DNA from: Candidatus Woesearchaeota archaeon
GTDB taxonomy: Archaea; Nanobdellota; Nanobdellia; Woesearchaeales; GW2011-AR9
Direction: 5' to 3'
NCBI GenBank assembly: GCA_018664115.1
Contig: JABJOX010000004.1
Coordinates: forward strand, 10,089 to 74,088
Length of the DNA: 64,000 nucleotides
Shown here: positions 8,016-54,790 of the stretch, one piece after another
How positions within the stretch are numbered: position 1 is the first letter of the stretch
How the letters are laid out: each line of letters opens with the position of its first letter
Translations under genes and position numbers: made by a program
The notes under the pieces: model-generated
Seen by the model: the letters and a program-made list of their open reading frames with translations, nothing else
The model's database searches: none
Told to the model about the DNA's origin: nothing

Positions 8016-8045
8016 ATAGTGATTATAACAATAAGAAAATAAAAA

Positions 8046-9368
8046 ATGAAAATTAGTATTTTTGGAACTGGATACGTTGGACTGGTAACTGGAGCAAGTT
8101 TAGCTAACTTGGGCCACGATGTTTTATGTGTGGATATAGACCAAAAAAAGATTGATTTAATCAATTCTGGAGAAATGCCTTTCTATGAACCCGGATTGAA
8201 AGAATTAGTTTTAAAAAATAAAGAAAACAAAAGAATAACATTTTCAACTGATATAGAAAAAGCAGTTCATTTTGCTGAAGCCATTTTTAATTGTGTGGGT
8301 ACGCCAATGAAAGAAGATGGTTCTGCTGATTTAAGTTATGTTTTTGAAGTAGTTAAGAGTGTAGTAAAATATTCTGATCAATATAAATTATTAATCAATA
8401 AAAGTACTGTTCCCCCTGGGACGGCAAAGAAATGTCAAGAATTAATAACAATCACGAACCCAAACGCAGAAATAGATGTAGCTTCTAATCCTGAATTCTT
8501 AAAACAGGGTAATGCTGTTTATGATTTTAATCACCCCGATAAGATTGTGGTTGGAGCCCAATCAGAAAAAGCATTTCAATTAATGCGTAAAGTGTATCAC
8601 GGTTTAATCAAGACTTATATGCCAATTATTGAAACTAACTGGGAAACTTCTGAAATGATTAAATATGCCAACAATTCTTTTCTAGCAACTAAAATAAGTT
8701 TTATTAATGAAATTGCCAATATCTGTAATAAAGTTGGTGCTGATGTGAAAACAGTTTCTAAAGCCATTGGAAAAGATTATCGGATTAGTCCTAAATTTCT
8801 TAATGCGGGCATTGGTTATGGGGGAAGTTGTTTTCCTAAAGATGTTCAGGCGTTAATTAACACTGCAAAAAGCTACAATTATCAACCCCAATTCTTACAG
8901 CAAGTTGAAGAACTTAATGAGAGACAGAAAACTATTCTTGTTCCTCAAATCATTGATAAACTTAAAGAGATTAATGGCAACCAAGTTACTATTTGGGGAT
9001 TAACTTTCAAACCAAAAACTAGCGATTTACGAGGAGCGACATCATTGAAAATTATTGAGGAATTGATAGATAATGGATTTAAAGTAAATATTTATGATCC
9101 TATTGCGTTAGAAGAAGTAAGAACTATCTTCTCAGACAAAGTTACTTATTCTAATTCTGTAAAAGATTCCGTTGTTAATAGCAATTTAATTGTTCTTGTA
9201 ACCGAATGGGACGAATTTAGAAATGTTGATTTCTCAGAATTAGGAAAATCAATGAAAACCAAAATTCTCTTTGATGGCCGAAATATTTATGAACCAGAGA
9301 CTTTAAAAGAGAACGGATTTGAATATTATGGAGTGGGGAGGAAAAATAAAAATCAAAACTTTATTTAA
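8046..9368 (+). CDS. ugd: UDP-glucose 6-dehydrogenase (nucleotide-sugar dehydrogenase)
   Basis: N-terminal Rossmann FGTGYVGLVTGASLA and catalytic GGSCFPKD motif, 440 aa. Confidence 0.9.
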   Translation: MKISIFGTGYVGLVTGASLANLGHDVLCVDIDQKKIDLINSGEMPFYEPGLKELVLKNKENKRITFSTDIEKAVHFAEAIFNCVGTPMKEDGSADLSYVFEVVKSVVKYSDQYKLLINKSTVPPGTAKKCQELITITNPNAEIDVASNPEFLKQGNAVYDFNHPDKIVVGAQSEKAFQLMRKVYHGLIKTYMPIIETNWETSEMIKYANNSFLATKISFINEIANICNKVGADVKTVSKAIGKDYRISPKFLNAGIGYGGSCFPKDVQALINTAKSYNYQPQFLQQVEELNERQKTILVPQIIDKLKEINGNQVTIWGLTFKPKTSDLRGATSLKIIEELIDNGFKVNIYDPIALEEVRTIFSDKVTYSNSVKDSVVNSNLIVLVTEWDEFRNVDFSELGKSMKTKILFDGRNIYEPETLKENGFEYYGVGRKNKNQNFI

Positions 9369-9670
9369 TATTATTAAAAAAAATGCTAAATCTGTAATTG
9401 GAGTAGATATTGAAAGCTCAGATATAGAAATAATTAATGGAAACGTGAAAACTATTAAATTAAATAAGAAATTTTACATTATTGTGGCAGGAGATCTTAT
9501 TGAACAATTATGTTGTCCCAGACCATTTTTAAATAATATCTGTTTGCATTTAAAAGATAAAAGTTCAATGATTAGTGTTACTCTTAGAAGAAAAAGGAAT
9601 AAGTTTAATTATTTATTTAGACTTATATTTGCAAACCATTTTCTGATAGTGTGTCATAAAAAGAATAGGG

Positions 9671-10378
9671 GTGAAATCTTCTCAGATGAATGATAAAAGA
9701 ATCAGGCTTGCTATAACACCAAGACATTTAGAGAATAGAGATGGTGAATTTTTTTCAGTACAAAAGAATTATTTAGATTTTTGGTCTAGTTATGGTTATG
9801 AACTTATTTTAATACCATTTATTGAAGATATGGATTTTGAGTCATTTTTTAATGAGTTAGGTATAAAAGGATTATTAATTGCTGGGGGTTATAAATATTA
9901 TTCTGAAAAGATTAGGGGATTTGAACATAAAGTTATTTCAGCGGCTTTAAACAAAAAACTTCCAATTATTGGTGTTTGTTGTGGACTTTGGAGCATTAAT
10001 GGTTTTTTTGGAGGAAAATTAAAATGGAACGAAAGACATAGTAAAAGAAATATTAAATTTGTTTCTCATTTTCTTTATAATAAAATTCTTGGAAGAAAGT
10101 ATATTCCGAAACACAAAATATTTCTCACTGGTGATATAATTAATAAATGTGAAGCAGAAGTTAACAGTTATCATAGAAAAGTAGTTAGTAAACTTGGTGA
10201 TGGTTTAAAACCTTTTATTTTATCTGATGATGGTGAAATTGAGGGGATTTATAATCTTGAGAAAAAAATTATTGCGGTTCAGTTTCATTTTGAACATGGT
10301 AATTGTAGTAAGTGGCTAGAAATAGATTGTATAAATTATATTAATAATCTATTTAATTTTAAAAATAATGGTGAATAA
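9671..10378 (+). CDS. Class-I glutamine amidotransferase-like / peptidase C26 (gamma-glutamyl hydrolase-like) protein
   Basis: PIIGVCCGLWSINGFFGG (nucleophile Cys in G-x-C-x-G) and a C-terminal AVQFHFE (His/Glu). Sits inside the insertion flanked by duplicated ugd 3' ends. Confidence 0.65.
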   Translation: MKSSQMNDKRIRLAITPRHLENRDGEFFSVQKNYLDFWSSYGYELILIPFIEDMDFESFFNELGIKGLLIAGGYKYYSEKIRGFEHKVISAALNKKLPIIGVCCGLWSINGFFGGKLKWNERHSKRNIKFVSHFLYNKILGRKYIPKHKIFLTGDIINKCEAEVNSYHRKVVSKLGDGLKPFILSDDGEIEGIYNLEKKIIAVQFHFEHGNCSKWLEIDCINYINNLFNFKNNGE

Positions 10379-10424: not shown

Positions 10425-10583
10425 TATTAAAATTATTTTCATAGGGTGTTGGGATTTTAGAATTATTGACTATTATGGATTTAAAAAATTAATGAGAAAT
10501 AAAGTTTTGTTTAATATCCAAAATATTTATAAACTAAACGCTTTAAAAGAGAATGGATTTGAGTATTGTGGGGTAGGGAGGAA
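10425..10583 (+). pseudogene. Decayed duplicate of the 3' end of ugd (about 50 codons). Its stop overlaps the ATG of the downstream glycosyltransferase (ATGA).
   Basis: 10521-10583 aligns to 9281-9344 at about 84% identity (aaatatttat.aac.a....ctttaaaagagaa.ggatttga.tatt.tgg.gt.gggaggaaa). Weaker similarity continues upstream to about 10440. It translates as ...NIYKLNALKENGFEYCGVGRK*, compared with the ugd C-terminus NIYEPETLKENGFEYYGVGRK. Confidence 0.6.
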
Positions 10584-11441
10584 ATGATAGTATCTATTGT
10601 GATTATTTTTGATGAATTGAGGAAAGAGAAGCTTAATCGACTAATTAATTCTTTTAAAGATCAATTAAATCAACACGAATCAGAAGTAATATTGGTCCAT
10701 GAATCTATAGAAAAAGATAACAGTTTACATTTACCAACAAATTTCAAATATTTTATAGTTCCTCCTAAAAGGGGGATAGCATTTAATCGGAATAAAGGCA
10801 TAGAATACTCTAAGGGGGAAATAATTGTTTTTATTGATGATGATTGTTGGGTTCAGGAGAAATGGTTATCTTCTTTACTTGAATCTTTTAATGATAACAA
10901 GACTTTAGTAACTACTAGTGGAACAAGAATTCCCAAATCTAATCTTGTTGGTAACTGTATTTCTGCTTTAGGTTTTCCGGGCGGTGGTAATTTGGGCTTT
11001 GAAAAAGTTTGGAAAGTTTCTAATGAGGGTTATACCAATCATCTTGCTGTTGGAAATTCTGCTCTTAATAGAAAAGTTTTTGAATTAGTTGGCACTTTTG
11101 ACGAAAGTATGACTTTTGGAGCTGAAGATGCAGAAATATCTTATCGTTTAGAAAAAGCAGGAATATTAATAAAATATGTCCCTAATGCTTACGCTTATCA
11201 TGAAGCGAGAACTACTTTATCTTCATTTTCAAGATGGCAGATAAGGAGAGGAAGAGCAAATTATTATTTTAAAAAGAAGGTGGGTAAAGTGGGTAGTTTT
11301 ATTAAATTACGTCTGTGGTCGACTAAGAATATTTTATCGGAAAATAAATTCAATTTAAGACTTCCTTTAATTTTAATATTGTTATCTTTTAGTTTTGTTT
11401 TACAACAGATGGGTTACATTTATGAGAGGTTTAAAAAATGA
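10584..11441 (+). CDS. Glycosyltransferase family 2
   Basis: VFIDDDCWVQEKW (DxD region), GT-A fold pattern and C-terminal TM segment. ATG at 10584 is preceded by GGGAGG. The track start at 10566 is an alternative upstream start. Confidence 0.8.
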   Translation: MIVSIVIIFDELRKEKLNRLINSFKDQLNQHESEVILVHESIEKDNSLHLPTNFKYFIVPPKRGIAFNRNKGIEYSKGEIIVFIDDDCWVQEKWLSSLLESFNDNKTLVTTSGTRIPKSNLVGNCISALGFPGGGNLGFEKVWKVSNEGYTNHLAVGNSALNRKVFELVGTFDESMTFGAEDAEISYRLEKAGILIKYVPNAYAYHEARTTLSSFSRWQIRRGRANYYFKKKVGKVGSFIKLRLWSTKNILSENKFNLRLPLILILLSFSFVLQQMGYIYERFKK

Positions 11442-12907
11442 AAGTAATATTAGTGAATCCAAGAATTTATGATGTACCTAATCATCCTTTAGGTATACTC
11501 TATATCGCTGGTTATTTAGAAAAAAATGGTTTTGAAGTTGAAGTAATAGATCCTAATTTTGATGAATCTGCAATCGAAATTGCAAAAAAAATAATCTCTC
11601 TCAACCCCGACGTGGTTGGGATTAGTACAAGAACTCCACAATTTGATCATGCTAAAAATATTGCCTCTCATCTAAAATTATCTTCTGATATTCCAATTGT
11701 TTTTGGGGGTCCACATCCAACAGTTCTTCCTCAAGAAGTATTAAAAGAAAATTGTATTGATTTTGTAGCTATTGGTGAAGGCGAAATAACTTTTTCGGAA
11801 CTTTGTGAAGCTTTGAAAGAAAATAAGGGATTTAAGGATGTAAATGGTATAGGTTATAAAAAAAACGGAGAACTAATCTTTACAGAATCAAGGGAATTAA
11901 TTCCAGATTTAGATTCAATACCTTTCCCTGCAAGACATCTTCTTCCTTCAAAATGGTACTTTGCCCCTCCTAGAATAAGGGGGATATGGACAAAAAGCAC
12001 CGCTACTATTATGGCTTCAAGAGGTTGTCCATATCGGTGTATTTTTTGCGGAAGCCACCGTATTTTTGGAAGAAAAACTAGATTTAGATCTCCAGAGAAT
12101 ATTATTGAAGAACTTAAACATTTAAGAAATAAATACCATATTGATGCGGTCTGGTTTGCTGACGATACTTTCACACTTCACCCCGCTTGGGTAACCAAAC
12201 TTTGCAGTTTAATAAAACAGCAAGGGTGGAACGATTTTAAGTGGGTAGCGCAAGCAAGAGTTAATACTGTTAGTTATGAATTACTTAAAACAATGAAATC
12301 TGCGGGATGTGTGCAAATAGATTTTGGTGTTGAATCTGGTTCGCCAAAAGTGCTAAAAATATTAAAAAAAGATATAACACCTGAAAAAGTAATTGAGGCT
12401 TTTAATATTGCTAAAAAAGCAGGATTGCTTAGATATACTAGTTTTATTATAGGAACTCCGGGAGAAAAAGAAGAAGATTTGAGATTAACATTTAAACTCT
12501 TAAAAAAAATAAAACCTGATTATGTGGATTTTTATTTTATGACGCCTTATCCAGGTACAGAAGTTTACCAAATTGCAAAAGAATTAGGTGTTTTTGAAAA
12601 AGGTGTTTCTTTTAATAAATGGCTTCTTGGAAAACACAGTGATAAGCCAGTTATGTGTACAGATTTGTCTGAAAAAAAAATTATTGAATGGAGATCAAAA
12701 TTGTACAACGCCAGTTTTATTAGGAATTATAAAACTTTGATGAGAAATCCTTCTTTTATATTTGGGGGGTTGATGATAGCTTTTAAAGGAATTGGTGGTT
12801 TAAGAAAAGGATTAGGCCGTTTTTTTAAAACTGGCAAAATAGATAGTATTTTTGTAGAATTATTAGTAAATTATCGTATGAAAACAAAAAAACAATTTTA
12901 TAAATAA
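11438..12907 (+). CDS. Cobalamin (B12)-binding radical SAM protein (class B radical SAM, putative methyltransferase)
   Basis: N-terminal B12-binding Rossmann-like region (GILYIAGYLEKNGFEVEVIDPN) and radical SAM CxxxCxxC (ASRGCPYRCIFCGS). Confidence 0.8.
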   Translation: MKVILVNPRIYDVPNHPLGILYIAGYLEKNGFEVEVIDPNFDESAIEIAKKIISLNPDVVGISTRTPQFDHAKNIASHLKLSSDIPIVFGGPHPTVLPQEVLKENCIDFVAIGEGEITFSELCEALKENKGFKDVNGIGYKKNGELIFTESRELIPDLDSIPFPARHLLPSKWYFAPPRIRGIWTKSTATIMASRGCPYRCIFCGSHRIFGRKTRFRSPENIIEELKHLRNKYHIDAVWFADDTFTLHPAWVTKLCSLIKQQGWNDFKWVAQARVNTVSYELLKTMKSAGCVQIDFGVESGSPKVLKILKKDITPEKVIEAFNIAKKAGLLRYTSFIIGTPGEKEEDLRLTFKLLKKIKPDYVDFYFMTPYPGTEVYQIAKELGVFEKGVSFNKWLLGKHSDKPVMCTDLSEKKIIEWRSKLYNASFIRNYKTLMRNPSFIFGGLMIAFKGIGGLRKGLGRFFKTGKIDSIFVELLVNYRMKTKKQFYK

Positions 12908-12909
12908 AA

Positions 12910-13794
12910 ATGCAAAAAGTAAATCCTTTGATAAGTGTTATAATCCCCTCATATAATTCAGAAAGATTTATCTCAAAATGTTTATTTTCTTTATTATCTC
13001 AAAAAGTTGATTTTGATTATGAAATCATTGTTGTTGATAGTTCAAAAGATAACACTTCAGAAATAATAAAAGATAAATTTCCTTCCGTTAAACTTATCCA
13101 CTTAAAAGAACAAACCTTGCCGGGAGCGGGAAGAAATATAGGGATTTCAGAAGCTAAAGGTAAAATAATAGCATTTACGGATTCTGATTGTATTGTTAAT
13201 AATAATTGGCTCCAAACCGCTTTAGAAAGTATTAATAAGGGGTATAGTGTTGTTGGTGGATCTGTTAAAAACGCAAATTCACAGACACTAATTAGTATTG
13301 CTGATTACTTCCTTACATTTAACGAATTTCTTCCTACAATGCCAAAGAGAGAAGTTTTATTTATGCCCACATGTAACCTTATTTGTAAAAAAGAAGTTTT
13401 TGAAGATATCGGTGGTTTTCCTCCCCATTTAGCAGCAGGTGAAGACACTATTTTTAATTATAAAGCTTCCAAGAAGTATAAATTATTATTTAATCCAAGA
13501 ATAAAAATTAGTCACAATAATCGTGATTCTTTTAAAAAATTCTTTAAACATCATTATAATTTTGGATTACATGCAGCATTACTTCGAAAAAAATATAAAT
13601 TACCAGGTAATATATTTGTTAAATATCCCCCTTTGATTGTGTTAATTCCTTTTGTTCGTTTTTTTTTAATATCTTTAAGAATGGTCCGTTGGAATTGGAA
13701 AATGTTACCTTCTTTTATTGTTAGTTCTCCATTAATTTTCATTGGAATATTGATTTGGAGTGTGGGTTTTATGAAAAACATGTGGTGGTCTTAA
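12910..13794 (+). CDS. Glycosyltransferase family 2
   Basis: ISVIIPSYNSERFISKCL...TDSDC (DxD), GT2 pattern. Confidence 0.8.
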   Translation: MQKVNPLISVIIPSYNSERFISKCLFSLLSQKVDFDYEIIVVDSSKDNTSEIIKDKFPSVKLIHLKEQTLPGAGRNIGISEAKGKIIAFTDSDCIVNNNWLQTALESINKGYSVVGGSVKNANSQTLISIADYFLTFNEFLPTMPKREVLFMPTCNLICKKEVFEDIGGFPPHLAAGEDTIFNYKASKKYKLLFNPRIKISHNNRDSFKKFFKHHYNFGLHAALLRKKYKLPGNIFVKYPPLIVLIPFVRFFLISLRMVRWNWKMLPSFIVSSPLIFIGILIWSVGFMKNMWWS

Positions 13795-13853
13795 TAACAC
13801 AATAAAATCATTTCATCATAAGTTTTTTAAATGATACCCTCTGCAATCAATAA

Positions 13854-15035
13854 ATGCGAAGATCCTATCTTAATTTGTTGAAATACTATTTTATTAAAAA
13901 TCCTAAAACCCCTATCCAATTAATTCATTTTGTAACTTCAAAATGCAATGCTAAATGTAAACATTGTTTTTTTTGGAGTAAACTTAATTCTAAAGATGAA
14001 TTATCTTTAGAAGAGATAGATAAATTTAGTAAAAGTTTACCTGATTTGATTATTTTAAACATAAGCGGCGGTGAACCTTTTATTCGTCAAGACTTTGCAG
14101 AAATAATAAAAACTTATTATCGTAATACTCCGGTTAAAGAAGTAGCTGTTCCGACTAATGGTACTTTTACAAGTAAAATTGTAAAAGATTGTATTGACAT
14201 TTTAGAAAATTGTCCTGATTTAAATTTAAATGTGGTTATTTCTCTTGACGGCCCTGAAAATATTCATGATGAGATTAGGCAAGTTAATGATTGTTTTAAT
14301 ATGGCAATTAAAACTTTTAATGAATTAAAATTATTACAAAAAAAATATTCTCACCTGCAACTTTCAGTAATTTCAACTTTAACTTCTATTAATCAGGATA
14401 AATTAGAAGAATTCCATAGTTATGTTAAAAATGTAATGAAACCAGATGTTTTTGGGCTAAATTTAATTAGGGGAGAAGCAAGGGTGATGAATTTATTTGG
14501 AGTTGACTTAAATAAGTATAAACTTTTTTTCCAACTTCAATCTAAATCTTCTAAAAAAGGAATTAAATCTATAATTAGAGATTATATGAATAAATTAAGA
14601 ACTGGAATGATAATAAAGACTATAGAAAATAAAAAATTTATCATTCCTTGTAAAGCAGGAAGTTTGATGGCGGTAATATATGAACAAGGAGAGGTATATC
14701 CTTGTGAACTTTTAAATAATAAATCTTTAGGTAATATTAAAGATTTCAATTATAATTTTAAGAAATTATGGGCGTCACAAAAAACTAAAGAGACTTGTAA
14801 GTTTATTAGAGAGACAAAATGTTATTGTACCCATGAATGTTTTCAGAGGTTTAATATTATTTATAATCCAAAATTTATCACTAAACATGCTAGTAAAGCA
14901 ATATTCAGAAAATCAAAAATAATTAATGCTCTTAAAATCAATTATGAAGAGAAAAATAATCAGCAAGAGATGGTTGAAATAGGACAATTAAGAGGAGTAA
15001 GACATGATTACAAAGAAAATTACAAAGAAAAATAG
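13854..15035 (+). CDS. Radical SAM protein with C-terminal SPASM/twitch-like Cys cluster
   Basis: FVTSKCNAKCKHCFF (CxxxCxxC) plus downstream Cys-rich stretch CKAG...PCELL...CKF...CYCTHECF. Confidence 0.75.
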   Translation: MRRSYLNLLKYYFIKNPKTPIQLIHFVTSKCNAKCKHCFFWSKLNSKDELSLEEIDKFSKSLPDLIILNISGGEPFIRQDFAEIIKTYYRNTPVKEVAVPTNGTFTSKIVKDCIDILENCPDLNLNVVISLDGPENIHDEIRQVNDCFNMAIKTFNELKLLQKKYSHLQLSVISTLTSINQDKLEEFHSYVKNVMKPDVFGLNLIRGEARVMNLFGVDLNKYKLFFQLQSKSSKKGIKSIIRDYMNKLRTGMIIKTIENKKFIIPCKAGSLMAVIYEQGEVYPCELLNNKSLGNIKDFNYNFKKLWASQKTKETCKFIRETKCYCTHECFQRFNIIYNPKFITKHASKAIFRKSKIINALKINYEEKNNQQEMVEIGQLRGVRHDYKENYKEK

Positions 15036-15101: not shown

Positions 15102-16019
15102 ATGTCTCTGATTATAATAATCTTTATAAATTACCTATTAATCATAACACTAATGTTACATAAACTTATGAATAAATATAATCGGTTTTCATTATTTCGT
15201 TATTTATATCATGGTTTTTTCCGGTTGTACTGTGATCATGTTAGTGATTACGTGATGATATCTTTTCCTAAAAGTGGCCATACTTGGTTAAGAGTTATGC
15301 TTGCCAAAGCATTTTCACTTCATTATGGTCTTTCTTCTCTTAATCTTGATCTTATTTTAATGGCAAAAGAAAAAAAAGGGATTCCAAAAATTGCTATTTA
15401 TCATGAAATATCTCCATTATTCTCAGTTAACTTCAGTTTAAAAAATAAAAAATTTTTGGGTTCATACGCAGAATCTGAAAAGGTTTTCATACGCACTCCT
15501 CTTAAAAAGAAAAAAATTATTTTTCTTGTACGAGACCCCAGAGATGTTGTAGTGTCGTTATTTTTTCATTTGACAAAGCGAAACAATTTTTATTTTAGAA
15601 ATGAGATGTCTCATTTTCTTAAAGAACCATTTAGTCTTACTAAAATCTTAAATTATATGAATCTTTGGTGTAAGGAAATGCAACGACGCCCAAATGAATT
15701 TTTATTTATTCGTTATGAGGATATGAAAACAAATACTGCAGAACAGTTAAGAAGAGTATTAGATTTCTTGGAAATAAATGTATCATATGATATTTTGAAT
15801 GAAGCTGTTGCTTTTGGTTCAATTGATAACATGCGTAAGATGGAAAAATGCAATTTGTTTGCCGATTATCGTTTGCAAGCAAAAAATCCAAGTGATCCTG
15901 AATCTTATAAAGTAAGAAAAGCTAAAGTGGGTGGTTATACTGATTATTTAAATCCTCAAGACTTGGAATATATAAATTTACGAATAAGTAAAGAGCTAAA
16001 TTCTGTATTTGGATATTAA
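15102..16019 (+). CDS. PAPS-dependent sulfotransferase with N-terminal membrane anchor
   Basis: 5'-PSB motif ISFPKSGHTWL (PKSGTTW-like) and 3'-PB motif VRDPRDVVVS (RDPxDxxVS). Hydrophobic N-terminus MSLIIIIFINYLLIITLML. Confidence 0.8.
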   Translation: MSLIIIIFINYLLIITLMLHKLMNKYNRFSLFRYLYHGFFRLYCDHVSDYVMISFPKSGHTWLRVMLAKAFSLHYGLSSLNLDLILMAKEKKGIPKIAIYHEISPLFSVNFSLKNKKFLGSYAESEKVFIRTPLKKKKIIFLVRDPRDVVVSLFFHLTKRNNFYFRNEMSHFLKEPFSLTKILNYMNLWCKEMQRRPNEFLFIRYEDMKTNTAEQLRRVLDFLEINVSYDILNEAVAFGSIDNMRKMEKCNLFADYRLQAKNPSDPESYKVRKAKVGGYTDYLNPQDLEYINLRISKELNSVFGY

Positions 16020-17455
16020 CTTGATTTTTTTAAAATTGATTTTACTAATTTTAGGTCTTTGATTGTGATTTCATTTAGAATTATGAGAATTAAAAAATAA
16101 GTTATTAACCATACCCCATAGTGGATTAATAGTTTCCACCCTGAAGAAATAGTTCTTGTTGCCATTATATAAATAATGAATGAGGATATAACAATTCTAA
16201 TGAATGACTTAGCAGTTATAATGACGGTTCTAAATCTTTTATATATGTAAATTAATGATAATAAAACACTTAAAATTGCAGTTATTAATAATGAGATGGC
16301 AGCTCCAATGGCGCCGTATATTGGGACAAAGATTAATGTAAGGGTGAGAGATAAGAATACACCTATCGTGGTTATAATTAGATCTATATTTGGTTTTCCT
16401 GCCCCATTGATTATAGAAGCGAATACTCTAAAAATAGAAAAGCAAGTTGTACTTATAATTAATATACTTAGAATGGCCCCCGCTGATACAAATGAGGAGG
16501 TATAAAAAAAGGTTACTAATTCATCTGCCGTTGTTGCAACAATAATCATGATCGGGGTGATAAGAAGTAGTAAATATCTTGTTGATTGACGAATGTATTT
16601 TTGAATTAGTTTATTGTTTTTTTCCGAAATGGCTTTTGAGATTGAAGGCATTAAAGTGAGGGATAAAGGTTGAAAAATAAGAAAAGAAACATTTGATAAT
16701 GCTGCAGCAGCGGTATAGAATCCAATTAAAGAATAATCTATACCTAAAAGTTTTAGAATGAATGGATTTGCGTTTTTAATAATTGTAAAGTTAATTGCAG
16801 TTAAAGTAATTGGTATTGAAAAATTAATGAGTTTTTTATTTTTAAATTCTCCAGTTGATTTCATTTTATCTTTAAGATAATAATGGCTAAGCCATATTGT
16901 GAGTGTAACTGAAATAAAATAACCCACTAGTATCCCCCAAATCTTAAATCCCATTAATACAAAAAGGAAAACTAATCCCACTCGAAGAATATGATGAACA
17001 CTTTTGACAATGGATTGTTCAGCGAACATACGTAGACCATTTAGATATCCGTTTGTGTAGAGTGAACGAATAGCTATTGGAACAACCATTATTCCCATGA
17101 AAATTATATAATACGTGAGGGAAGAATCTTTTAGTGCTTTAGCAATTAGTTTGGAAAAAATAATGTAAATAAATCCAAAACTTAATGAAGAATAGAGTTG
17201 TAATCTAAAAGATTTTACAAAAATATTTTTAAGACCATTTTTAGATTCTGCGATAAATTTTGAGACCGATCTTGGAATTCCGGTGTTAAGAAATGAAGTA
17301 TTTAAAAGATAAAGAGACATAAGTACGCCAAATATACCATAAATTTCCGAACCCAAAATTCTTCCAATTCCAATATTAATACTATAATTTGCGAGAACCG
17401 CTAGGAACTGAGCAATTATTAAATATGCAGTTCCACTAGCCAATTTTTTCTTCAT
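16016..17455 (-). CDS. Polysaccharide/oligosaccharide flippase (Wzx-like, MOP superfamily)
   Basis: 479 aa, about 12-14 predicted TM helices, with a Wzx-like layout. Confidence 0.7.
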   Translation of the reverse strand: MKKKLASGTAYLIIAQFLAVLANYSINIGIGRILGSEIYGIFGVLMSLYLLNTSFLNTGIPRSVSKFIAESKNGLKNIFVKSFRLQLYSSLSFGFIYIIFSKLIAKALKDSSLTYYIIFMGIMVVPIAIRSLYTNGYLNGLRMFAEQSIVKSVHHILRVGLVFLFVLMGFKIWGILVGYFISVTLTIWLSHYYLKDKMKSTGEFKNKKLINFSIPITLTAINFTIIKNANPFILKLLGIDYSLIGFYTAAAALSNVSFLIFQPLSLTLMPSISKAISEKNNKLIQKYIRQSTRYLLLLITPIMIIVATTADELVTFFYTSSFVSAGAILSILIISTTCFSIFRVFASIINGAGKPNIDLIITTIGVFLSLTLTLIFVPIYGAIGAAISLLITAILSVLLSLIYIYKRFRTVIITAKSFIRIVISSFIIYIMATRTISSGWKLLIHYGVWLITYFLILIILNEITIKDLKLVKSILKKSS

Positions 17456-18327
17456 TTTTTAGCAAGAAAAATAACTGCGTTTCCAAAACTGAATGGTCGT
17501 TTTTTAGAATCACTCCATTTTTGTAATTTTAATGATAGTTTTCTTGGAAGTATACTATAGTTACTATAAAATCCTCCTGCTCCACATCTACAAATAGTGA
17601 AACCAGCTTTTTTAATGAGAAATCTTAAACGTTTTGGTGTTATCAAGTTTTTTCGAGGAAGTTTTGTTTTTTTAATTAATCTGAGTTTTTTTTTACTTTT
17701 AAGATTGAATATAATGGCTATGAACAGAATCCAGTTTAAAATAAATGTATTTCTGATATAGAACTCATATTTCCCCCCAGTAATAATTGTGTAAATGACT
17801 TTAAATAATCCGAAAGGATTATCAAGATAATGTAACCCATAAAGATTTTCTTGACCGATGATAAAATATCCTCCTCTTTTAAGAACACGCTTTGCTTCAC
17901 GAAGACATTGCAATGGTGATTCCATATATTGCAAGAACCCTATGCCAAATACAACATCAAAGTAATCATCTTTAAATTGTAAATTTTTTGCATCCCCCAC
18001 ATTGAGACTAAATTTACCTTCAGTATTCGTAACTTTATAACAATTTTTTCTTGCAATTTTACAAAGGGTTTCTGAAATATCAATACCATGAAGATAATAA
18101 CCTTTTCTTATAATTTTAGCTGAAGTTATTCCTGCTCCAAATCCCAGTTCCAGAATTTTTGATTTTTGTGGCATGTTAAGGCTATCTAAAAATTTTATAA
18201 CCTTTTGTTCTCTTGCTTTTAGTCTTAAACCCTGAAAATCTTCTTTATAATAATAATCTTCCCATTTTGATTGTTGATCTGAATTCCACCAATCTTCCGA
18301 ACTCTTTTGATTTATATTTGAATCCAT
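17452..18327 (-). CDS. Class I SAM-dependent methyltransferase
   Basis: ILELGFGAGITSAKI (motif I, GxGxG) ... DVVFGIG. Overlaps the flippase by 4 nt. Confidence 0.75.
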   Translation of the reverse strand: MDSNINQKSSEDWWNSDQQSKWEDYYYKEDFQGLRLKAREQKVIKFLDSLNMPQKSKILELGFGAGITSAKIIRKGYYLHGIDISETLCKIARKNCYKVTNTEGKFSLNVGDAKNLQFKDDYFDVVFGIGFLQYMESPLQCLREAKRVLKRGGYFIIGQENLYGLHYLDNPFGLFKVIYTIITGGKYEFYIRNTFILNWILFIAIIFNLKSKKKLRLIKKTKLPRKNLITPKRLRFLIKKAGFTICRCGAGGFYSNYSILPRKLSLKLQKWSDSKKRPFSFGNAVIFLAKK

Positions 18328-20328: not shown

Positions 20329-20385
20329 AGATGCATGATTTGAATTCTAACTTTTTCTTTTATAATATCTCAAAAAAATTTATCA

Positions 20386-24794: not shown

Positions 24795-24795
24795 T

Positions 24796-53592: not shown

Positions 53593-54132
53593 ATGCCTAT
53601 TAGTCCTAAAACAGTCAGTAAAATAACTCGCGTTGGTCTTTTAAATAGAATTTTTGGGAATATTTATTTGGGGTTAAGATTGTTTTATCAAGAAATGAAA
53701 TGCGCTGAATTTCGTAAAAAATATAATATTCATCCCTCATTTCGTTTTAATGGTCCAGGAACAATTTTCTATGGTGCTGGAAAAATATTTGCTGGTGAGA
53801 ATTCTTATATTGGGCGTTATAGTGCAATTTCTACATCTAAAGGAAATAAGGTGATTATAGGGAAAGGATGTGCTATTAGTCATTTTGTGATGATGTATAC
53901 TACATCAAGAAAAACTAATCAAGATTTTTCTCAGGTTCCGCACCAACAAGAGTTTGGAGATATTATTATTGGACCTTATACCTGGATTGGCGCTCGTGTT
54001 TTTATTAAACACGGTGTGACTATTGGAAAGAATTGCGTAATTGGGGCTAATAGTGTAGTGACAAAAGATATCCCTGATTTTTCTGTTGCTGTTGGTTGTC
54101 CAGCTAGAGTTGTGAAAAAGATAATTATTTAA
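53593..54132 (+). CDS. Left-handed beta-helix (hexapeptide-repeat) acyl/acetyltransferase
   Basis: Hexapeptide repeats WIGARVFIKHGVTIGKNCVIGANSVVTKDIP. Confidence 0.75.
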   Translation: MPISPKTVSKITRVGLLNRIFGNIYLGLRLFYQEMKCAEFRKKYNIHPSFRFNGPGTIFYGAGKIFAGENSYIGRYSAISTSKGNKVIIGKGCAISHFVMMYTTSRKTNQDFSQVPHQQEFGDIIIGPYTWIGARVFIKHGVTIGKNCVIGANSVVTKDIPDFSVAVGCPARVVKKIII

Positions 54133-54790
54133 TTATTTCTCTAATCAACATAAAAGTCTCTGCAGCTTCTAAACATACTTCATTTCCACGTTGTATGGCT
54201 TTTATTTCAGCTCCTTTTAATGATCGTGGATGAGGATATTCTCGCAATTCTGATTTATATAATGACATTGCTTCCCCTTTCTTTGCTAACTCTTGTGAGA
54301 TGTCAATATAAATATTAGGTATAAATGGTGTTGTATATGGTGATGATTGCTCAGTTTCACTTATAACTTCATAACTAAATATTTTTTTAATAAATGGGTT
54401 TATTTTTGGTTTAGCTGCAATTAAAGCACATTGAAAAGTTATTTGATGGTCTTTATGTAAATCCCCTTGATGTGGTATAAATAACTCGTTTGGTTGACAT
54501 TCTTCAATAATTTCTTTTAATTTATGATTAATTTCGTTTTGAGGTACGACATCTAGACTAGCAGCGATAAAATCACAAAAGAATACTTTTTTTATTCCAA
54601 TTAAATTTGCTACTCTTAGGACTTCTTTTCTCTTTTCTTCCAGGACTTCTTTTCCATAGTAAGTTTCTTCTCCTTTAGTCATAATACAAAGAAAAACTTC
54701 ATTTCCTGCTTTAATATTTTTAATTATTGTCCCTCCACAGCCAAGAACTTCGTCATCGGGATGGGGTGCAATTACAAGTATTTTTTTCAT
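54125..54790 (-). CDS. PIG-L/LmbE-family N-acetyl-sugar deacetylase
   Basis: ILVIAPHPDDEVLGCGGTI (PIG-L signature HPDDE) ... HKDH. Confidence 0.85.
   Translation of the reverse strand: MKKILVIAPHPDDEVLGCGGTIIKNIKAGNEVFLCIMTKGEETYYGKEVLEEKRKEVLRVANLIGIKKVFFCDFIAASLDVVPQNEINHKLKEIIEECQPNELFIPHQGDLHKDHQITFQCALIAAKPKINPFIKKIFSYEVISETEQSSPYTTPFIPNIYIDISQELAKKGEAMSLYKSELREYPHPRSLKGAEIKAIQRGNEVCLEAAETFMLIREIIK

What the first reader, a model, noticed from the sequence alone, without database searches (positions are those of the whole stretch)
11438..15035. Three radical-SAM enzymes (one cobalamin-dependent, two SPASM-like) distributed through a glycan island
A B12-binding class-B radical SAM (11438-12907) and a SPASM-type radical SAM (13854-15035) are interleaved with two GT2 genes and followed by the sulfotransferase. 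A third SPASM-like radical SAM is at 58351-59493 beside the nonulosonic-acid genes. Class-B enzymes typically methylate unactivated carbons (for example in aminoglycoside/fosfomycin sugars). SPASM enzymes do epimerisation, dehydrogenation or C-C/C-S crosslinks. Radical chemistry on a cell-surface glycan in an archaeon would be unusual and is unexplored.
Basis: partly seen in the sequence, partly recalled or inferred. Interest (0 to 1): 0.6.

Follow-up and report, generated by a model that had tools for sequence, protein, structure and literature searches.

The report
Radical-SAM enzymes embedded in glycan clusters
A small archaeon (Woesearchaeota) carries three iron-sulfur "radical" enzymes wired into its cell-surface sugar gene clusters; each belongs to an unstudied, widespread enzyme family that always travels with sugar-building genes, pointing to untested radical chemistry on surface glycans.

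Summary
The window has exactly three radical-SAM (rSAM) genes, at the stated coordinates, inside sugar-biosynthesis operons of a Ca. Woesearchaeota genome. None is a housekeeping rSAM, and none reaches any NCBIfam cutoff. rSAM1 (11438-12907) has a cobalamin-binding domain plus an rSAM core. Its close relatives (>=43% identity) lie in glycan clusters in 5/5 independent loci. It is absent from the closest syntenic clusters, so it is a variable decoration. rSAM2 (13854-15035) has an abridged SPASM domain (5 conserved Cys, not 7). It forms a conserved unit with the upstream GT2: a glycosyltransferase is directly adjacent in 53/65 related loci, and natural GT2-rSAM2 fusion proteins exist (7/7 tested). 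rSAM3 (58351-59493) is a BtrN-like twitch enzyme with one auxiliary cluster, not a SPASM enzyme. It sits in a cassette, rSAM3-NeuB-CMP-transferase/PseG-WbqC-PIG-L, whose gene order is the same in rhizobia. The chemistry is inferred only: radical tailoring of glycan or nonulosonic-acid intermediates. The pattern is not rare. It recurs in DPANN, CPR, and the Lawsonia and Brachyspira plasmids, but I found no characterisation. Verdict: new variants of a known kind, and moderately interesting enzyme-discovery leads.

The parts
8046..9368 (+). UDP-glucose/GDP-mannose dehydrogenase; first gene of glycan operon 1
   Evidence: PF03721/PF00984/PF03720, E 3.5e-66. It recurs upstream of GT2-GT2...rSAM2 in the closest relatives L006, L096 and L097.
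9671..10378 (+). Class-I glutamine amidotransferase / peptidase C26-like protein
   Evidence: PF00117 1e-16, PF07722 1.4e-16. Best NCBIfam hit is gamma-glutamyl-CDP-amidate hydrolase at 55 bits, below the 250-bit cutoff.
10566..11441 (+). GT2 glycosyltransferase A; overlaps the rSAM1 start by 4 nt
   Evidence: PF00535 1.4e-15. One C-terminal TM-like segment and a -4 nt gap to rSAM1.
11438..12907 (+). rSAM1: cobalamin-binding-domain radical SAM enzyme (class-B architecture); a variable glycan-tailoring enzyme
   Evidence: PF02310 plus PF04055. C197/C201/C204 are invariant in the family. The N-terminus aligns with the cobalamin domains of OxsB, TsrM, TokK and CysS. Relatives at >=43% identity lie in glycan clusters in 5/5 independent loci. 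It is absent from the closest syntenic clusters.
12910..13794 (+). GT2 glycosyltransferase B; conserved partner of rSAM2
   Evidence: PF00535 9.3e-31. Two C-terminal TM-like helices at 235-289. It is the best window match for 49/68 of the GTs adjacent to rSAM2 relatives. Fused to rSAM2-like domains in P0374, P0380, P0381, P0417, P0420, P0437 and P0484. It resembles glycan-elongating GT2s in the PDB.
13854..15035 (+). rSAM2: radical SAM enzyme with an abridged SPASM/twitch-like C-terminal domain; core member of a GT2-rSAM2-Wzx module
   Evidence: PF04055 plus a weak PF13186 hit. Invariant C31/C35/C38 and C266, G279, C284, C323, C325, C329; C120 in >=90%. AF2 model pLDDT 87.6. The fold is equidistant from CteB, SkfB, anSME and BlsE, with TM 0.45-0.57. 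GT2 is present in 31/33 loci, and a GT is directly adjacent in 53/65. 1031 family representatives at E<=1e-30.
15102..16019 (+). Sulfotransferase with an N-terminal membrane anchor; a variable decoration
   Evidence: PF00685 4.7e-28. TM-like segment at residues 1-24. No homologue was found in any of the 170 related loci scanned.
16016..17455 (-). Wzx-type polysaccharide flippase
   Evidence: PF01943 8.1e-23. A Wzx gene directly follows rSAM2 in the closest relatives.
17452..18327 (-). Class I SAM-dependent methyltransferase
   Evidence: PF08241 7.1e-21. An MTase is present in 52% of rSAM2 loci.
21177..23978 (-). Pyruvate-kinase-barrel + ATP sulfurylase + APS kinase fusion; the likely PAPS supply for the sulfotransferase
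   Evidence: PF00224, PF14306, PF01747 and PF01583. NCBIfam sulfate adenylyltransferase 428 bits, above its 387 cutoff; apsK 188 bits, above 139.
58351..59493 (-). rSAM3: BtrN-like twitch-domain radical SAM enzyme of the nonulosonic-acid cassette
   Evidence: PF04055 plus PF13186. Invariant C65/C69/C72 plus exactly four auxiliary Cys, C258, C276, C321 and C324. All four align with the corresponding Cys of BtrN's C-terminal twitch region, which are its auxiliary-cluster ligands as I recall the published structure. AF2 model pLDDT 86.8; the top fold match is BtrN at TM 0.73-0.76. NulO genes are adjacent in 6/6 orthologue-level loci.
57220..58263 (-). NeuB/PseI-type nonulosonic acid synthase
   Evidence: PF03102 1.7e-78. 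NeuB_NnaB 320 bits and PseI 313 bits, both below their cutoffs.
55493..57217 (-). CMP-NulO synthetase-like (PseF-like) + PseG-like fusion
   Evidence: PF02348 2.4e-30 plus PF04101. PseG 98.6 bits. The N-terminal half hits the N-terminal half of TIGR04321 spiro-SPASM.
54790..55485 (-). WbqC-like protein
   Evidence: PF08889 3.4e-73. It holds the same position in the rhizobial cassettes.
54125..54790 (-). PIG-L family de-N-acetylase
   Evidence: PF02585 2.3e-25. Conserved in L009, L010, L011, L173, L176 and L178.
59576..59935 (-). 119-aa ORF of unknown function between the MTase and rSAM3
   Evidence: No Pfam or NCBIfam hit.
59932..61050 (-). SAM-dependent methyltransferase of the NulO island
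   Evidence: PF08241 6.2e-11. MTases also accompany rSAM3 in L009, L010, L173 and L178.
61043..62620 (-). Hexapeptide acetyltransferase + PseC-like aminotransferase fusion
   Evidence: PF01041 5.2e-105 plus PF00132. PseC 285 bits, LegC family 238 bits.
62623..63561 (-). SDR 4,6-dehydratase/epimerase (LegB/PseB-like)
   Evidence: PF01370 1.3e-58. LegB 173 bits, PseB 73 bits, both below their cutoffs.

Best explanation
All three genes encode real radical-SAM enzymes that are dedicated tailoring enzymes of cell-surface glycan biosynthesis in a Woesearchaeota (DPANN) archaeon. Each uses a 5'-deoxyadenosyl radical to activate a C-H bond that ordinary NAD- or PLP-dependent sugar enzymes cannot reach.

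(a) rSAM2 works as a physical and functional unit with the upstream membrane-anchored GT2 (12910-13794) and the Wzx flippase. The GT2 adds a sugar to the lipid-linked oligosaccharide on the cytoplasmic face of the membrane. rSAM2 then modifies that residue before flipping. The chemistry is inferred to be epimerisation, oxidation or decarboxylation, with one auxiliary cluster as an electron conduit and spare conserved Cys as possible H-atom donors.

(b) rSAM3 is a BtrN-like twitch enzyme. It acts on an intermediate of a pseudaminic/legionaminic-type nonulosonic acid pathway. The most likely reaction is abstraction of the H-atom geminal to a hydroxyl, followed by export of one electron through the single auxiliary [4Fe-4S] cluster. 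This would give a ketone, which can then be epimerised, aminated or methylated.

(c) rSAM1 is a cobalamin-domain rSAM that serves as an optional, strain-variable decoration. It is either a C-methylase of an unactivated sugar carbon or an HpnJ/AprD4-like rearranging or dehydrating enzyme acting on a sugar.

Shown: domain architecture, cluster-ligand conservation, predicted folds, and conserved gene neighbourhoods and fusions. Inferred: substrates and every chemical step.
For: Identity: Pfam domains and CxxxCxxC motifs, with invariant cluster Cys across 34-40 homologues per family.

Not housekeeping: every NCBIfam equivalog is far below its cutoff.

rSAM2-GT2 unit: GT2 is present in 31/33 related loci with >=6 kb of flank. 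A GT is directly adjacent (<=300 nt) in 53/65 loci. The adjacent GT is on the same strand in 56/68 cases and is most like GT2_12910 in 49/68. By comparison, only 12/57 distant B12-rSAM loci have an adjacent GT. Natural GT2(N)-rSAM2(C) fusions were found in 7/7 long homologues tested, and there is one rSAM2-PF03706 membrane-domain fusion. In the 62-72% identity relatives the core UDPG-DH-GT2-GT2...rSAM2-Wzx-MTase is conserved. There is no RRE/PqqD domain, and the rSAM core starts at about residue 25.

rSAM3: exactly four invariant auxiliary Cys align with the corresponding Cys of BtrN's twitch region. BtrN is the top sequence hit (E 7.7e-20 with the family profile) and the top fold hit (TM 0.73-0.76). 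NulO-pathway genes are adjacent in 6/6 orthologue-level loci from a 5.6-Mb bacterial chromosome, Thaumarchaeota, SAR202, two rhizobial replicons and an IMG/VR contig, and NeuB itself is present in 5/6. The gene order rSAM3-NeuB-CMPtr-PseG-like-WbqC-PIG-L is identical in the window and in rhizobia. The window already encodes all six Pse-type functions, so rSAM3 is an extra. The NCBIfam spiro-SPASM family fuses a cytidylyltransferase-like domain to an rSAM/SPASM domain, and rSAM3 and the PseF-like domain each hit their own half of it.

rSAM1: PF02310 at 96 bits. The N-terminus aligns to the Cbl domains of OxsB, TsrM, TokK and CysS. Loci L001, L002/3, L005, L171 and L172 are all glycan clusters, and L171 repeats the rSAM1-then-GT2 arrangement with a 2-nt gap (genes at 8001-9467 and 9470-10378). 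The nearest characterised sugar-acting relatives are HpnJ (188 bits) and AprD4 (160 bits with the profile). It is absent from the closest syntenic clusters.

Independent bacterial examples: Lawsonia plasmid 1 and the Brachyspira virulence plasmid.
Against: No reaction, substrate or product is shown for any member of the three families.

For rSAM1, relatives at <=42% identity are heterogeneous: 27/57 have a GT nearby. The best-scoring Nitrospirota clade sits beside a PqqD-rSAM-MTase fusion (RiPP-like), so the glycan-linked clade is narrow and rests on five loci plus the window. No partner gene is conserved.

Cobalamin binding cannot be read from sequence, and AprD4, the closest solved relative, matches only through the rSAM core.

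For rSAM2, the adjacent GT2s share only a median 29% identity with GT2_12910, so orthology is approximate. The UDP-Glc dehydrogenase association holds only in the closest relatives (2/33 overall). All fold matches are generic, with TM about 0.5. SPASM/twitch enzymes are more often peptide maturases.

For rSAM3, BtrN acts on an aminocyclitol, not a nonulosonic acid. Identity is 17-18%, and rSAM3 has about 100 extra residues.
Confidence: 0.72

Rival explanations
1. The SPASM/twitch enzymes (and possibly rSAM1) are peptide (RiPP) maturases. The neighbouring GT2s would then glycosylate a peptide or a redox-cofactor-like product, as in the mycofactocin system (MftC rSAM plus MftF GT2) or SunS-type glycocins. 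They would not build a surface glycan.
For: Most characterised SPASM enzymes are peptide maturases. The top fold hits of rSAM2 are CteB, SkfB, anSME and SuiB. The best NCBIfam hit of GT2_12910 is MftF (114 bits), and rSAM2 aligns almost full-length to MftC (68 bits). rSAM1 relatives at 40% identity in Nitrospirota sit beside a PqqD-rSAM-MTase fusion, and ApyD (a RiPP enzyme) is rSAM1's top NCBIfam hit.
Against: All of these scores are far below the family cutoffs (114 vs 280; 68 vs 265; 206 vs 750). rSAM2 and rSAM3 have no RRE/PqqD domain. No other mycofactocin gene (MftA, B, D or E) was annotated among the window ORFs of >=100 aa; ORFs small enough to encode MftA were not scanned. The intergenic gaps next to the rSAMs are 2-66 nt, too short for a precursor gene. 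The operons carry Wzx flippases, NDP-sugar enzymes and NulO genes. rSAM2 is fused to a membrane GT2 or a flippase-like TM domain.
Confidence: 0.08
2. The enzymes act on lipids, either the polyprenyl/dolichyl carrier or scavenged membrane lipids, rather than on the sugar. Precedents would be Tes/GDGT-MAS, GrsA, the ladderane B12-rSAM and the hopanoid methylases.
For: rSAM1 hits the lipid-biosynthesis B12-rSAM TIGR04072 (144 bits) and HpnR (117 bits). rSAM3 and rSAM2 hit Tes/GDGT-MAS weakly. rSAM2 is fused to membrane domains. PF03706 flippase-like genes neighbour rSAM1 relatives in L001 and L005. Two CDP-alcohol phosphatidyltransferase genes lie at 19612-21108.
Against: All of these scores are well below their cutoffs. 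No lipid-biosynthesis genes recur in the neighbourhoods, whereas GTs, NDP-sugar enzymes and NulO genes do. The rSAM3 cassette is made up entirely of soluble nucleotide-sugar enzymes. By general knowledge, DPANN and CPR organisms largely lack lipid synthesis.
Confidence: 0.1
3. They are housekeeping or defence rSAMs that merely lie near sugar genes by chance. Candidates would be cofactor biosynthesis (MoaA, NirJ/Ahb, BchE-like), tRNA/rRNA modification, or viperin-like antiviral enzymes.
For: There is generic similarity of the rSAM core to MoaA, NirJ/AhbD, BchE, MiaB/RimO and pVip.
Against: Every such family is far below its curated cutoff; for example MoaA scores 53 vs 325, NirJ 71 vs 515, BchE 197 vs 481, and pVip 46-51 bits on the core only. 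The neighbourhood with GT or NulO genes is conserved across phyla and even across domains, and gene fusions exist. The genes overlap or abut the sugar genes in one operon.
Confidence: 0.03
4. On chemistry only: rSAM1 is a classical class-B C-methyltransferase (GenK/Fom3-like), rather than a rearranging or dehydrating enzyme.
For: Most characterised Cbl-rSAMs are methylases. Full-length alignments exist to PhpK-type (151 bits), Mmp10-type MJ_0865 (147 bits), HpnR (117 bits) and RiPP C-methylases (109 bits). Several paralogous B12-rSAMs occur per cluster in relatives (4 in L008, 3 in L007), which resembles site-specific methylase sets. From memory only, and not verifiable in the held library, a C-methylated uronic acid was reported in the Methanothermococcus thermolithotrophicus N-glycan.
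Against: Higher scores go to ApyD, BchE and HpnJ (206, 197 and 188 bits); BchE and HpnJ are not methylases as far as I know, and ApyD's reaction was not checked. AprD4 is the closest solved structure. The window already has a TylC3-type sugar C-methyltransferase and several class I MTases.
Confidence: 0.35

Closest known systems
BtrN (2-deoxy-scyllo-inosamine dehydrogenase, butirosin pathway; PDB 4M7T/4M7S), the founding twitch-domain rSAM
   Same: rSAM3 shares the CxxxCxxC core plus a C-terminal beta-hairpin/helix domain. Its four Cys align one-to-one with the four Cys of BtrN's twitch region, which are its auxiliary-cluster ligands as I recall the structure. BtrN is the best sequence and fold match. 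Both sit in carbohydrate pathways next to aminotransferases.
   Different: Identity is only 17-18%. rSAM3 is about 100 aa longer, with a conserved N-terminal helical extension. Its context is nonulosonic-acid biosynthesis, not aminocyclitol biosynthesis. The substrate and reaction are untested.
HpnJ with HpnI/HpnK (hopanoid cyclitol-ether side chain: GT2, PIG-L/YdjC-type deacetylase, B12-rSAM ring contraction of a lipid-linked glucosamine; roles as I recall them, not checked here)
   Same: rSAM1 aligns over nearly the full HpnJ model (188 bits; residues 53-432 vs model positions 65-438 of 472). Both have the B12-domain rSAM architecture, are encoded next to GT2 genes, and presumably act on a sugar already attached to a lipid-linked acceptor.
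   Different: The score is far below the 578-bit cutoff. No hopanoid genes are present. The organism is an archaeon. The reaction is unknown.
AprD4 (apramycin C3 deoxygenation, rSAM diol-dehydratase; PDB 6FD2)
   Same: It is the closest solved structure to rSAM1's rSAM core (E 2.6e-28 with the single sequence; 160 bits with the family profile). It acts on a carbohydrate.
   Different: The match covers residues 153-390 only. As I recall it, AprD4's N-terminal domain does not bind cobalamin, whereas rSAM1's N-terminus is a strong PF02310 match. NF033070 scores 108 bits against a 500-bit cutoff.
Class-B cobalamin-dependent rSAM methylases acting on sugars or small molecules (GenK, Fom3, TokK, TsrM, CysS, Mmp10)
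   Same: The two-domain architecture is the same. The N-terminal domain aligns to the cobalamin domains of TokK, TsrM, CysS and OxsB.
   Different: No methylase family cutoff is met. Similarity is lower than to BchE and HpnJ. Methyl transfer is untested.
SPASM/twitch subgroup enzymes anSME, SkfB, CteB, BlsE, MftC
   Same: rSAM2 shares the partial TIM barrel plus a C-terminal Cys-rich domain with the CX12GX4C element. The fold matches have probability 1.0.
   Different: Only five of the seven SPASM Cys are conserved, and the motif is CxCx3C in place of CX2CX5CX3C. TM-scores are about 0.45-0.57 to all of them, so none is close. There is no RRE. The enzyme is paired or fused with a GT2.
Uncharacterised rSAM genes in bacterial glycan loci: the Brachyspira hyodysenteriae ~36-kb plasmid (PMC4267127), Lawsonia intracellularis plasmid 1, and phase-variable rSAMs listed for Campylobacter fetus (PMC6321876)
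   Same: rSAM genes are interleaved with glycosyltransferases, NDP-sugar enzymes and methyltransferases. The Brachyspira copies are distant rSAM3 relatives (25-27% identity). Lawsonia has a B12-rSAM at 32% identity to rSAM1.
   Different: These are different families, or only distant members. None has a known function, so they show that the pattern recurs but do not explain it.
NCBIfam TIGR04321 spiro-SPASM protein (cytidylyltransferase-like domain fused to rSAM/SPASM)
   Same: rSAM3 matches its C-terminal half (51 bits), and the PseF-like domain encoded two genes downstream of rSAM3 (after NeuB) matches its N-terminal half (46 bits). This is a Rosetta-stone link between CMP-sugar activation and a SPASM-type rSAM.
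   Different: Both scores are far below the 250-bit cutoff. The family itself is uncharacterised.

Membership tests
Radical SAM superfamily (PF04055) | CxxxCxxC motif that ligates the SAM-binding [4Fe-4S] cluster, within a (partial) TIM-barrel core | tested here: met
   All three ORFs hit PF04055 above the gathering score and carry the motif. The three Cys are invariant in each family alignment.
Class B (cobalamin-dependent) radical SAM enzymes: rSAM1 | N-terminal Rossmann-like cobalamin-binding domain (PF02310) preceding the rSAM core | tested here: met
   PF02310 at 96.3 bits against a 32.1-bit cutoff, residues 15-122. The domain aligns with the Cbl domains of OxsB, TsrM, TokK and CysS.
Class B (cobalamin-dependent) radical SAM enzymes: rSAM1 | Actual cobalamin binding, and methyl transfer yielding SAH plus 5'-dA | not testable with these tools
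   This needs purified protein, UV-vis/EPR spectroscopy and product analysis.
Named class-B equivalogs (BchE, HpnJ, ApyD, PhpK, Mmp10-type MJ_0865, HpnR, AprD4, BzaD): rSAM1 | Score at or above the curated NCBIfam cutoff | tested here: not met
   Best scores: 206 vs 750 (ApyD), 197 vs 481 (BchE), 188 vs 578 (HpnJ), 151 vs 600 (PhpK), 147 vs 360 (MJ_0865), 108 vs 500 (AprD4).
SPASM domain rSAMs (two auxiliary clusters): rSAM2 | Seven-Cys motif CX9-15GX4C...CX2CX5CX3C...C | tested here: not met
   CX12GX4C is present (C266, G279, C284), but the second element is C323-x-C325-x3-C329 and no seventh conserved Cys follows. C315 is not conserved. Five C-terminal Cys are invariant, plus C120 at >=90%. 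The Pfam SPASM hit is only 24.3 bits.
SPASM domain rSAMs (two auxiliary clusters): rSAM3 | Seven-Cys motif for two auxiliary clusters | tested here: not met
   Only four auxiliary Cys are invariant: C258, C276, C321 and C324.
Twitch-domain rSAMs (BtrN type): rSAM3 | Abridged SPASM domain with four Cys ligating a single auxiliary [4Fe-4S] cluster | tested here: met
   The four invariant Cys align with the C...GxxxxC and CxxC of BtrN. BtrN is the top fold match at TM 0.73-0.76 normalised to BtrN.
Twitch-domain rSAMs (BtrN type): rSAM3 | Two-electron oxidation of a secondary alcohol on a carbohydrate-like substrate | not testable with these tools
   This is inferred from fold and context only.
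Peptide-modifying SPASM maturases (RiPP): rSAM2 and rSAM3 | An RRE/PqqD-like peptide-recognition domain and an adjacent precursor peptide gene | tested here: not met
   There is no PF05402 hit. The rSAM core starts at about residue 25 in rSAM2. The flanking gaps of 2-66 nt leave no room for a precursor gene.
Mycofactocin system (MftC/MftF) | MftC and MftF at equivalog score, with MftA/B/D/E genes present | tested here: not met
   MftC scores 68 vs 265 and MftF scores 114 vs 280. No other Mft protein was annotated among the window ORFs of >=100 aa; smaller ORFs (MftA-sized) were not scanned.
Prokaryotic viperins (pVip) | A full-length match to the pVip models | tested here: not met
   Only core-region hits of 46-51 bits were found. 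NCBIfam viperin_w_prok scores 50 vs 180.
Pseudaminic/legionaminic acid biosynthesis cluster (context of rSAM3) | 4,6-dehydratase, aminotransferase, N-acetyltransferase, nucleotidase/hydrolase, NulO synthase and CMP-transferase | tested here: met
   All six functions are present by domain: 62623 (SDR), 61043 (hexapeptide transferase + PseC-like), 55493 (CTP_transf_3 + PseG-like) and 57220 (NeuB). No equivalog cutoff is reached, so which NulO stereoisomer is made is undetermined.

The most novel reading that the evidence does not exclude
The GT2-rSAM2 pair (and its natural single-chain fusions) is a previously unrecognised two-step machine, 'add a sugar, then edit it by radical chemistry', acting on lipid-linked glycans. 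It would produce residues such as epimers, keto- or deoxy-sugars, or C-C/C-S cross-linked units that no nucleotide-sugar pathway can deliver. The rSAM3 cassette would make a new, radical-derived nonulosonic acid variant shared by archaea and rhizobia. Together with multi-copy B12-rSAMs, this would define an anaerobic 'radical glycan tailoring' toolkit that is especially common in DPANN and CPR organisms.
Probability: 0.35. Interest if true: 0.75.

Novelty: new variant of a known kind. Interest (0 to 1): 0.55.

Why it matters
Radical SAM chemistry on carbohydrates is well established for antibiotics (BtrN, DesII, GenK, AprD4, BlsE) and for hopanoids (HpnJ). I found no characterised example for cell-surface glycans or nonulosonic acids.

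This work turns a vague 'rSAMs near GTs' remark into three concrete, testable enzyme-discovery targets.

- A large family, with at least 1031 representatives at 50% clustering, is genetically locked to a GT2 and sometimes fused to it.
- A BtrN-like enzyme sits in a NulO cassette that is conserved from Woesearchaeota to cultivable rhizobia, so genetics and NulO mass spectrometry are feasible today.
- A cobalamin-type rSAM behaves as a strain-variable decoration.

Related clusters lie on plasmids of two pig pathogens, and in Brachyspira they correlate with virulence. The unknown glycan modification may therefore matter for host interaction, serotype diversity and phage or host recognition, and for how ultra-small symbionts build their surfaces under anoxia.

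Tried and rejected
1. Subfamily assignment with NCBIfam gave no family at cutoff for any of the three, so no function could be transferred.

3. I hypothesised that GT2_12910 is a GtrB/ArnC/DPMS-type polyprenyl-phosphate GT, because it has a GT-A domain plus two C-terminal TM helices. I did not adopt this. The PDB sequence matches favour glycan-elongating GT2s, DPMS scores only 27 bits and GtrB is absent from the hits.

4. I hypothesised that rSAM2 acts on glucuronic acid, like the decarboxylase BlsE, because a UDP-Glc dehydrogenase lies upstream. This is weak: the dehydrogenase co-occurs in only 2/33 loci overall.

5. A sulfotransferase-rSAM functional link is rejected. No sulfotransferase homologue was found in any related locus.

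6. A scan of GTDB genomes for rSAM1 returned only 33-50% identity relatives with mixed contexts. That set the family boundary but gave no orthologues.

7. Phage collections contained no relatives of rSAM2 or rSAM3. The IMG/VR scan gave one orthologue-level locus (L178); the remaining hits were distant families.

8. Ten full-text literature searches found nothing characterising these families. The paper on the Methanothermococcus N-glycan (PMC7586221) is not held, so the C-methyl-sugar precedent could not be verified.

9. The defence-system reading (viperin) is rejected, because only weak core hits were found.

Full report
OBSERVATION. The ORFs exist exactly as described.

- rSAM1 (11438-12907, +, 489 aa) has a B12-binding domain (PF02310, 1.4e-27, residues 15-122) followed by a Radical_SAM core (PF04055, 1.4e-31) with the motif C197PYRCIFC.
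- rSAM2 (13854-15035, +, 393 aa) has PF04055 (1.4e-14), a weak SPASM hit (PF13186, 4e-5) and the motif C31NAKCKHC.
- rSAM3 (58351-59493, -, 380 aa) has PF04055 (4e-16), SPASM (5.4e-12) and the motif C66NMKCPMC.

A motif scan shows these are the only three rSAM genes in the window. The gene order is UDP-Glc dehydrogenase, GATase, GT2, rSAM1, GT2, rSAM2, sulfotransferase. A Wzx flippase and a SAM methyltransferase converge from the other strand. The intergenic distances are -4, +2, +59 and +66 nt, which fits an operon. rSAM2 is identical over its full length, and rSAM3 over the 288 aa of the NCBI record (76% of the ORF), to NCBI proteins labelled Candidatus Woesearchaeota archaeon. GC content is about 30%.

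THE WINDOW AS A WHOLE. Apart from a few housekeeping genes (HisRS, MetAP, POR, cytidylate kinase, FolD), almost the whole 64 kb is glycan biosynthesis. It contains:

- five GT2 and one GT4 glycosyltransferases;
- two Wzx flippases;
- an ArnC/ArnA/ArnT-like module;
- a TylC3-type sugar C-methyltransferase cluster;
- a PAPS-synthesis fusion protein;
- a complete pseudaminic/legionaminic-type nonulosonic acid (NulO) island at 54-64 kb.

'Glycan island' is an accurate description.

NOT HOUSEKEEPING. Against NCBIfam's curated models, none of the three reaches any family cutoff.

- rSAM1's best scores are ApyD 206/750, BchE 197/481 and HpnJ 188/578.
- rSAM2's best are NirJ 71/515, AhbD 69/500 and MftC 68/265.
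- rSAM3's best are the tungsten-cofactor maturase 120/380 and the N-terminal twitch family 92/170.

MoaA, MiaB/RimO, HemN-type and viperin families score far lower.

rSAM2 IS LOCKED TO A GT2. The family is large: 1031 cluster representatives at E<=1e-30. It is found in Woesearchaeota, Micrarchaeota, Nanoarchaeota, Patescibacteria, Wolfebacteria, Firmicutes and Leptospirales.

I fetched 79 metagenomic loci, called ORFs, and annotated them with HMMs seeded from the window.

- A GT2 occurs in 31 of 33 loci that have >=6 kb of flank.
- A glycosyltransferase is immediately adjacent (<=300 nt) in 53 of 65 loci that have >=2 kb of flank.
- By contrast, distant B12-rSAM loci analysed the same way have an adjacent GT in only 12 of 57 cases.
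- The adjacent GT is on the same strand in 56 of 68 cases, and in 49 of 68 it is most similar to the window's GT2 at 12910-13794.

Among long homologues, 7 of 7 tested are single-chain GT2(N)-rSAM2(C) fusions of 558-719 aa. Another homologue is fused to a PF03706 flippase-like membrane domain. GT2_12910 itself carries two C-terminal TM-like helices. By sequence it resembles glycan-elongating GT2s (chondroitin synthase, GalT1, TarS, PglI) more than dolichol-phosphate GTs.

In the closest relatives (62-72% identity) the core UDPG-DH-GT2-GT2...rSAM2-Wzx-MTase is conserved. rSAM1 and the sulfotransferase are missing from these loci. So rSAM2 is a core component, and the other two genes are variable decorations.

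In the rSAM2 family, C31/C35/C38, C266, G279, C284, C323, C325 and C329 are invariant, and C120 is nearly so. C315 is not conserved. This is CX12GX4C followed by CxCx3C, which makes five of the seven SPASM cysteines. That is enough for one auxiliary cluster plus one or two spare thiols.

The AF2 model is confident (pLDDT 87.6). It matches CteB, SkfB, anSME, BlsE, SuiB, MoaA and EpeE about equally, at TM 0.45-0.57. It is therefore a distinct branch of the SPASM/twitch subgroup. There is no RRE domain and no room for a precursor gene, which argues against a RiPP role.

rSAM3 IS A BtrN-LIKE TWITCH ENZYME OF A NulO CASSETTE. In 34 homologues, exactly four auxiliary Cys are invariant. In a profile-to-PDB alignment they align with the C...GxxxxC and CxxC of BtrN (E 7.7e-20). 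BtrN is also the top fold match (E 9e-12, TM 0.73-0.76 normalised to BtrN), ahead of MoaA and DesII.

The family is about 352 aa long and is spread over Omnitrophota, SAR202, Thaumarchaeota, Nitrospinae, Elusimicrobia, Altiarchaeota and Proteobacteria.

All six orthologue-level loci outside the window carry NulO-pathway genes next to rSAM3. They are L009 (a 5.6-Mb bacterial chromosome), L010 (Thaumarchaeota), L011 (SAR202), L173 (Rhizobium sp. WYJ-E13), L176 (Neorhizobium galegae HAMBI 1141) and L178 (an IMG/VR contig). [quoted passage not shown] The gene order rSAM3-NeuB-CMP-transferase-PseG-like-WbqC-PIG-L is identical in the window and in the two rhizobial replicons.

The window already encodes all six canonical Pse-type functions. 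That makes rSAM3, the neighbouring MTase, WbqC and PIG-L tailoring extras.

NCBIfam's 'spiro-SPASM' family fuses a cytidylyltransferase-like domain to an rSAM/SPASM domain. rSAM3 and the nearby PseF-like domain (two genes downstream of rSAM3, after NeuB) each hit their own half of it. This is a weak Rosetta-stone link.

A full-text search for 'radical SAM' together with 'nonulosonic' returned no papers. With 'pseudaminic' it returned nothing relevant.

rSAM1 IS A COBALAMIN-DOMAIN, VARIABLE DECORATION. Its N-terminal domain aligns to the cobalamin domains of OxsB, TsrM, TokK and CysS. Its core is closest to AprD4, a sugar diol-dehydratase.

Relatives at >=43% identity were examined in five independent loci, and all are glycan clusters: L001, L002/L003, L005, L171 and L172. 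L171 has the same rSAM1-then-GT2 arrangement, with a 2-nt gap.

Below about 42% identity the contexts become mixed. Of 57 such loci, 27 have a GT and 42% have another B12-rSAM. The best-scoring Nitrospirota clade lies next to a PqqD-rSAM-MTase fusion instead.

No partner gene is conserved. Together with its absence from the closest syntenic clusters, this makes rSAM1 look like a portable tailoring enzyme.

The highest-scoring characterised families are ApyD, BchE and HpnJ. HpnJ acts on a lipid-linked glucosamine. Methylases (PhpK-type, Mmp10-type, HpnR) score lower. I therefore rate C-methylation at only about 0.35, alongside HpnJ/AprD4-like rearrangement or dehydration.

HOW COMMON, AND WHAT IS KNOWN. 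Clusters that combine several B12-rSAMs, SPASM-type rSAMs, GT2/GT4 genes, class I methyltransferases and often heptose-pathway genes occur in several places:

- marine Nanoarchaeota (L007);
- Patescibacteria (L008, with four B12-rSAMs);
- Lawsonia intracellularis plasmid 1.

The Brachyspira hyodysenteriae plasmid carries several 'radical SAM domain proteins' (eight rows in the table excerpt I read) among GT1 and rhamnose genes. Their presence correlated with virulence (PMC4267127). The four copies that matched in my search are distant rSAM3 relatives. In Parabacteroides distasonis an rSAM2 relative is directly followed by a lipid-glycosylation GT.

So the arrangement is not unusual, but I found no biochemical characterisation.

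MECHANISM (inferred). Each enzyme reductively cleaves SAM to generate a 5'-deoxyadenosyl radical, which abstracts a hydrogen atom from a sugar C-H bond.

- For rSAM3, by analogy with BtrN, the substrate radical alpha to a hydroxyl is deprotonated. One electron leaves through the single auxiliary cluster, giving a ketone on a NulO or 6-deoxyhexose intermediate. The neighbouring aminotransferase, methyltransferase or a reductase could then process it; net epimerisation is an alternative outcome.
- For rSAM2, the substrate is the residue installed by its GT2 partner on the lipid-linked glycan, before Wzx flipping. The outcome is undetermined: epimerisation with a conserved Cys as H-donor, oxidation or decarboxylation.
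- For rSAM1, cobalamin either delivers a methyl group to the substrate radical or supports a rearrangement.

The architecture, the ligand sets, the predicted folds and the genetic coupling are shown. All substrates and products are inferred.

VERDICT. These are new, uncharacterised variants within known rSAM subgroups. Two of the leads are unusually clean and testable: the GT2-rSAM2 unit and the cross-domain rSAM3-NulO cassette. Interest is moderate, at about 0.55.

Noticed in passing
window 21177-23978 (-): A 933-aa fusion of a pyruvate-kinase barrel (residues 3-320) with PUA_2, ATP sulfurylase and APS kinase. The sulfurylase and kinase parts pass their NCBIfam cutoffs and would supply PAPS to the sulfotransferase at 15102. 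I cannot explain the fusion to a pyruvate-kinase domain.
   Followed up: partly
window 24093-29343 (-): A 1515-aa giant protein (cytidylyltransferase-like + PEP-utilizer mobile domain + PPDK_N ATP-grasp + NTP_transf_3) lies next to a peptidase-C26 GATase. The GATase's best NCBIfam hit is gamma-glutamyl-CDP-amidate hydrolase (80 bits against a 250-bit cutoff). The set resembles the Campylobacter O-methyl-phosphoramidate genes Cj1416-Cj1418 (recalled from memory). It may be a phosphoramidate-type glycan modification pathway in an archaeon.
   Followed up: partly
window 30367-35065: An ArnC/ArnA/ArnT-like trio, GT2 (31917), formyltransferase (32727) and PMT_2 GT-C (33596), lies beside a 5-formyl-THF cyclo-ligase + FolD fusion (30367-31803, -). 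This suggests a formylated amino-sugar transferred from a lipid carrier.
   Followed up: no
window 40615-45946: A classical, non-radical branched-sugar cluster: DegT aminotransferase, GT2, GtrA-like protein, a TylC3-type NDP-hexose C-methyltransferase (PF08421 + PF08484, 43007-44308), GNAT and a 4,6-dehydratase. The organism therefore also C-methylates sugars by the keto-sugar route.
   Followed up: no
P0374, P0380, P0381, P0417, P0420, P0437, P0484 (homologues, not in the window): Natural single-chain GT2-rSAM2 fusion proteins of 558-719 aa, and P0164, an rSAM2 fused to a PF03706 flippase-like TM domain. At least 13 such long proteins appear among the top 150 family representatives.
   Followed up: partly
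L175 (Lawsonia intracellularis plasmid 1, NC_008012) and the Brachyspira hyodysenteriae plasmids (H16-H24): Small plasmids of two pig-gut pathogens carry rSAM-rich glycan clusters. Lawsonia has a B12-rSAM, a second rSAM, five class I MTases (one directly after the B12-rSAM, four more after the second rSAM), GT2s and heptose-pathway genes. Brachyspira has four rSAM3-like copies. All are functionally uncharacterised.
   Followed up: partly
window 58351-59493 (-): NCBI's record for this protein (P0241) is 288 aa, 76% of the ORF. From the length difference, a start that late would lie downstream of the CNMKCPMC motif; I did not check the aligned coordinates. Close homologues (383 aa) and the AF2 model (residues 10-47 confidently helical) support the long ORF. 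The NCBI record is probably truncated or mis-started.
   Followed up: partly
window 35147-37099, 37406-39133, 46498-47448, 51023-52330, 59576-59935: Five sizeable ORFs (650, 575, 316, 435 and 119 aa) inside the glycan islands have no Pfam hit. The 119-aa ORF lies directly upstream of rSAM3.
   Followed up: no
L004 (Nitrospiraceae chromosome CP070632) and L012-L016: The bacterial B12-rSAMs most similar to rSAM1 among GTDB species representatives (about 41% identity) sit next to an 803-aa PqqD + rSAM + methyltransferase fusion. This is an apparently RiPP-like system, distinct from the glycan-linked clade.
   Followed up: no
window 19612-21108: Two divergently oriented CDP-alcohol phosphatidyltransferase genes follow a cytidylate kinase, between the two sugar islands. 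They may attach a phospho-alcohol head group, as in teichoic-acid-like polymers or lipids.
   Followed up: no
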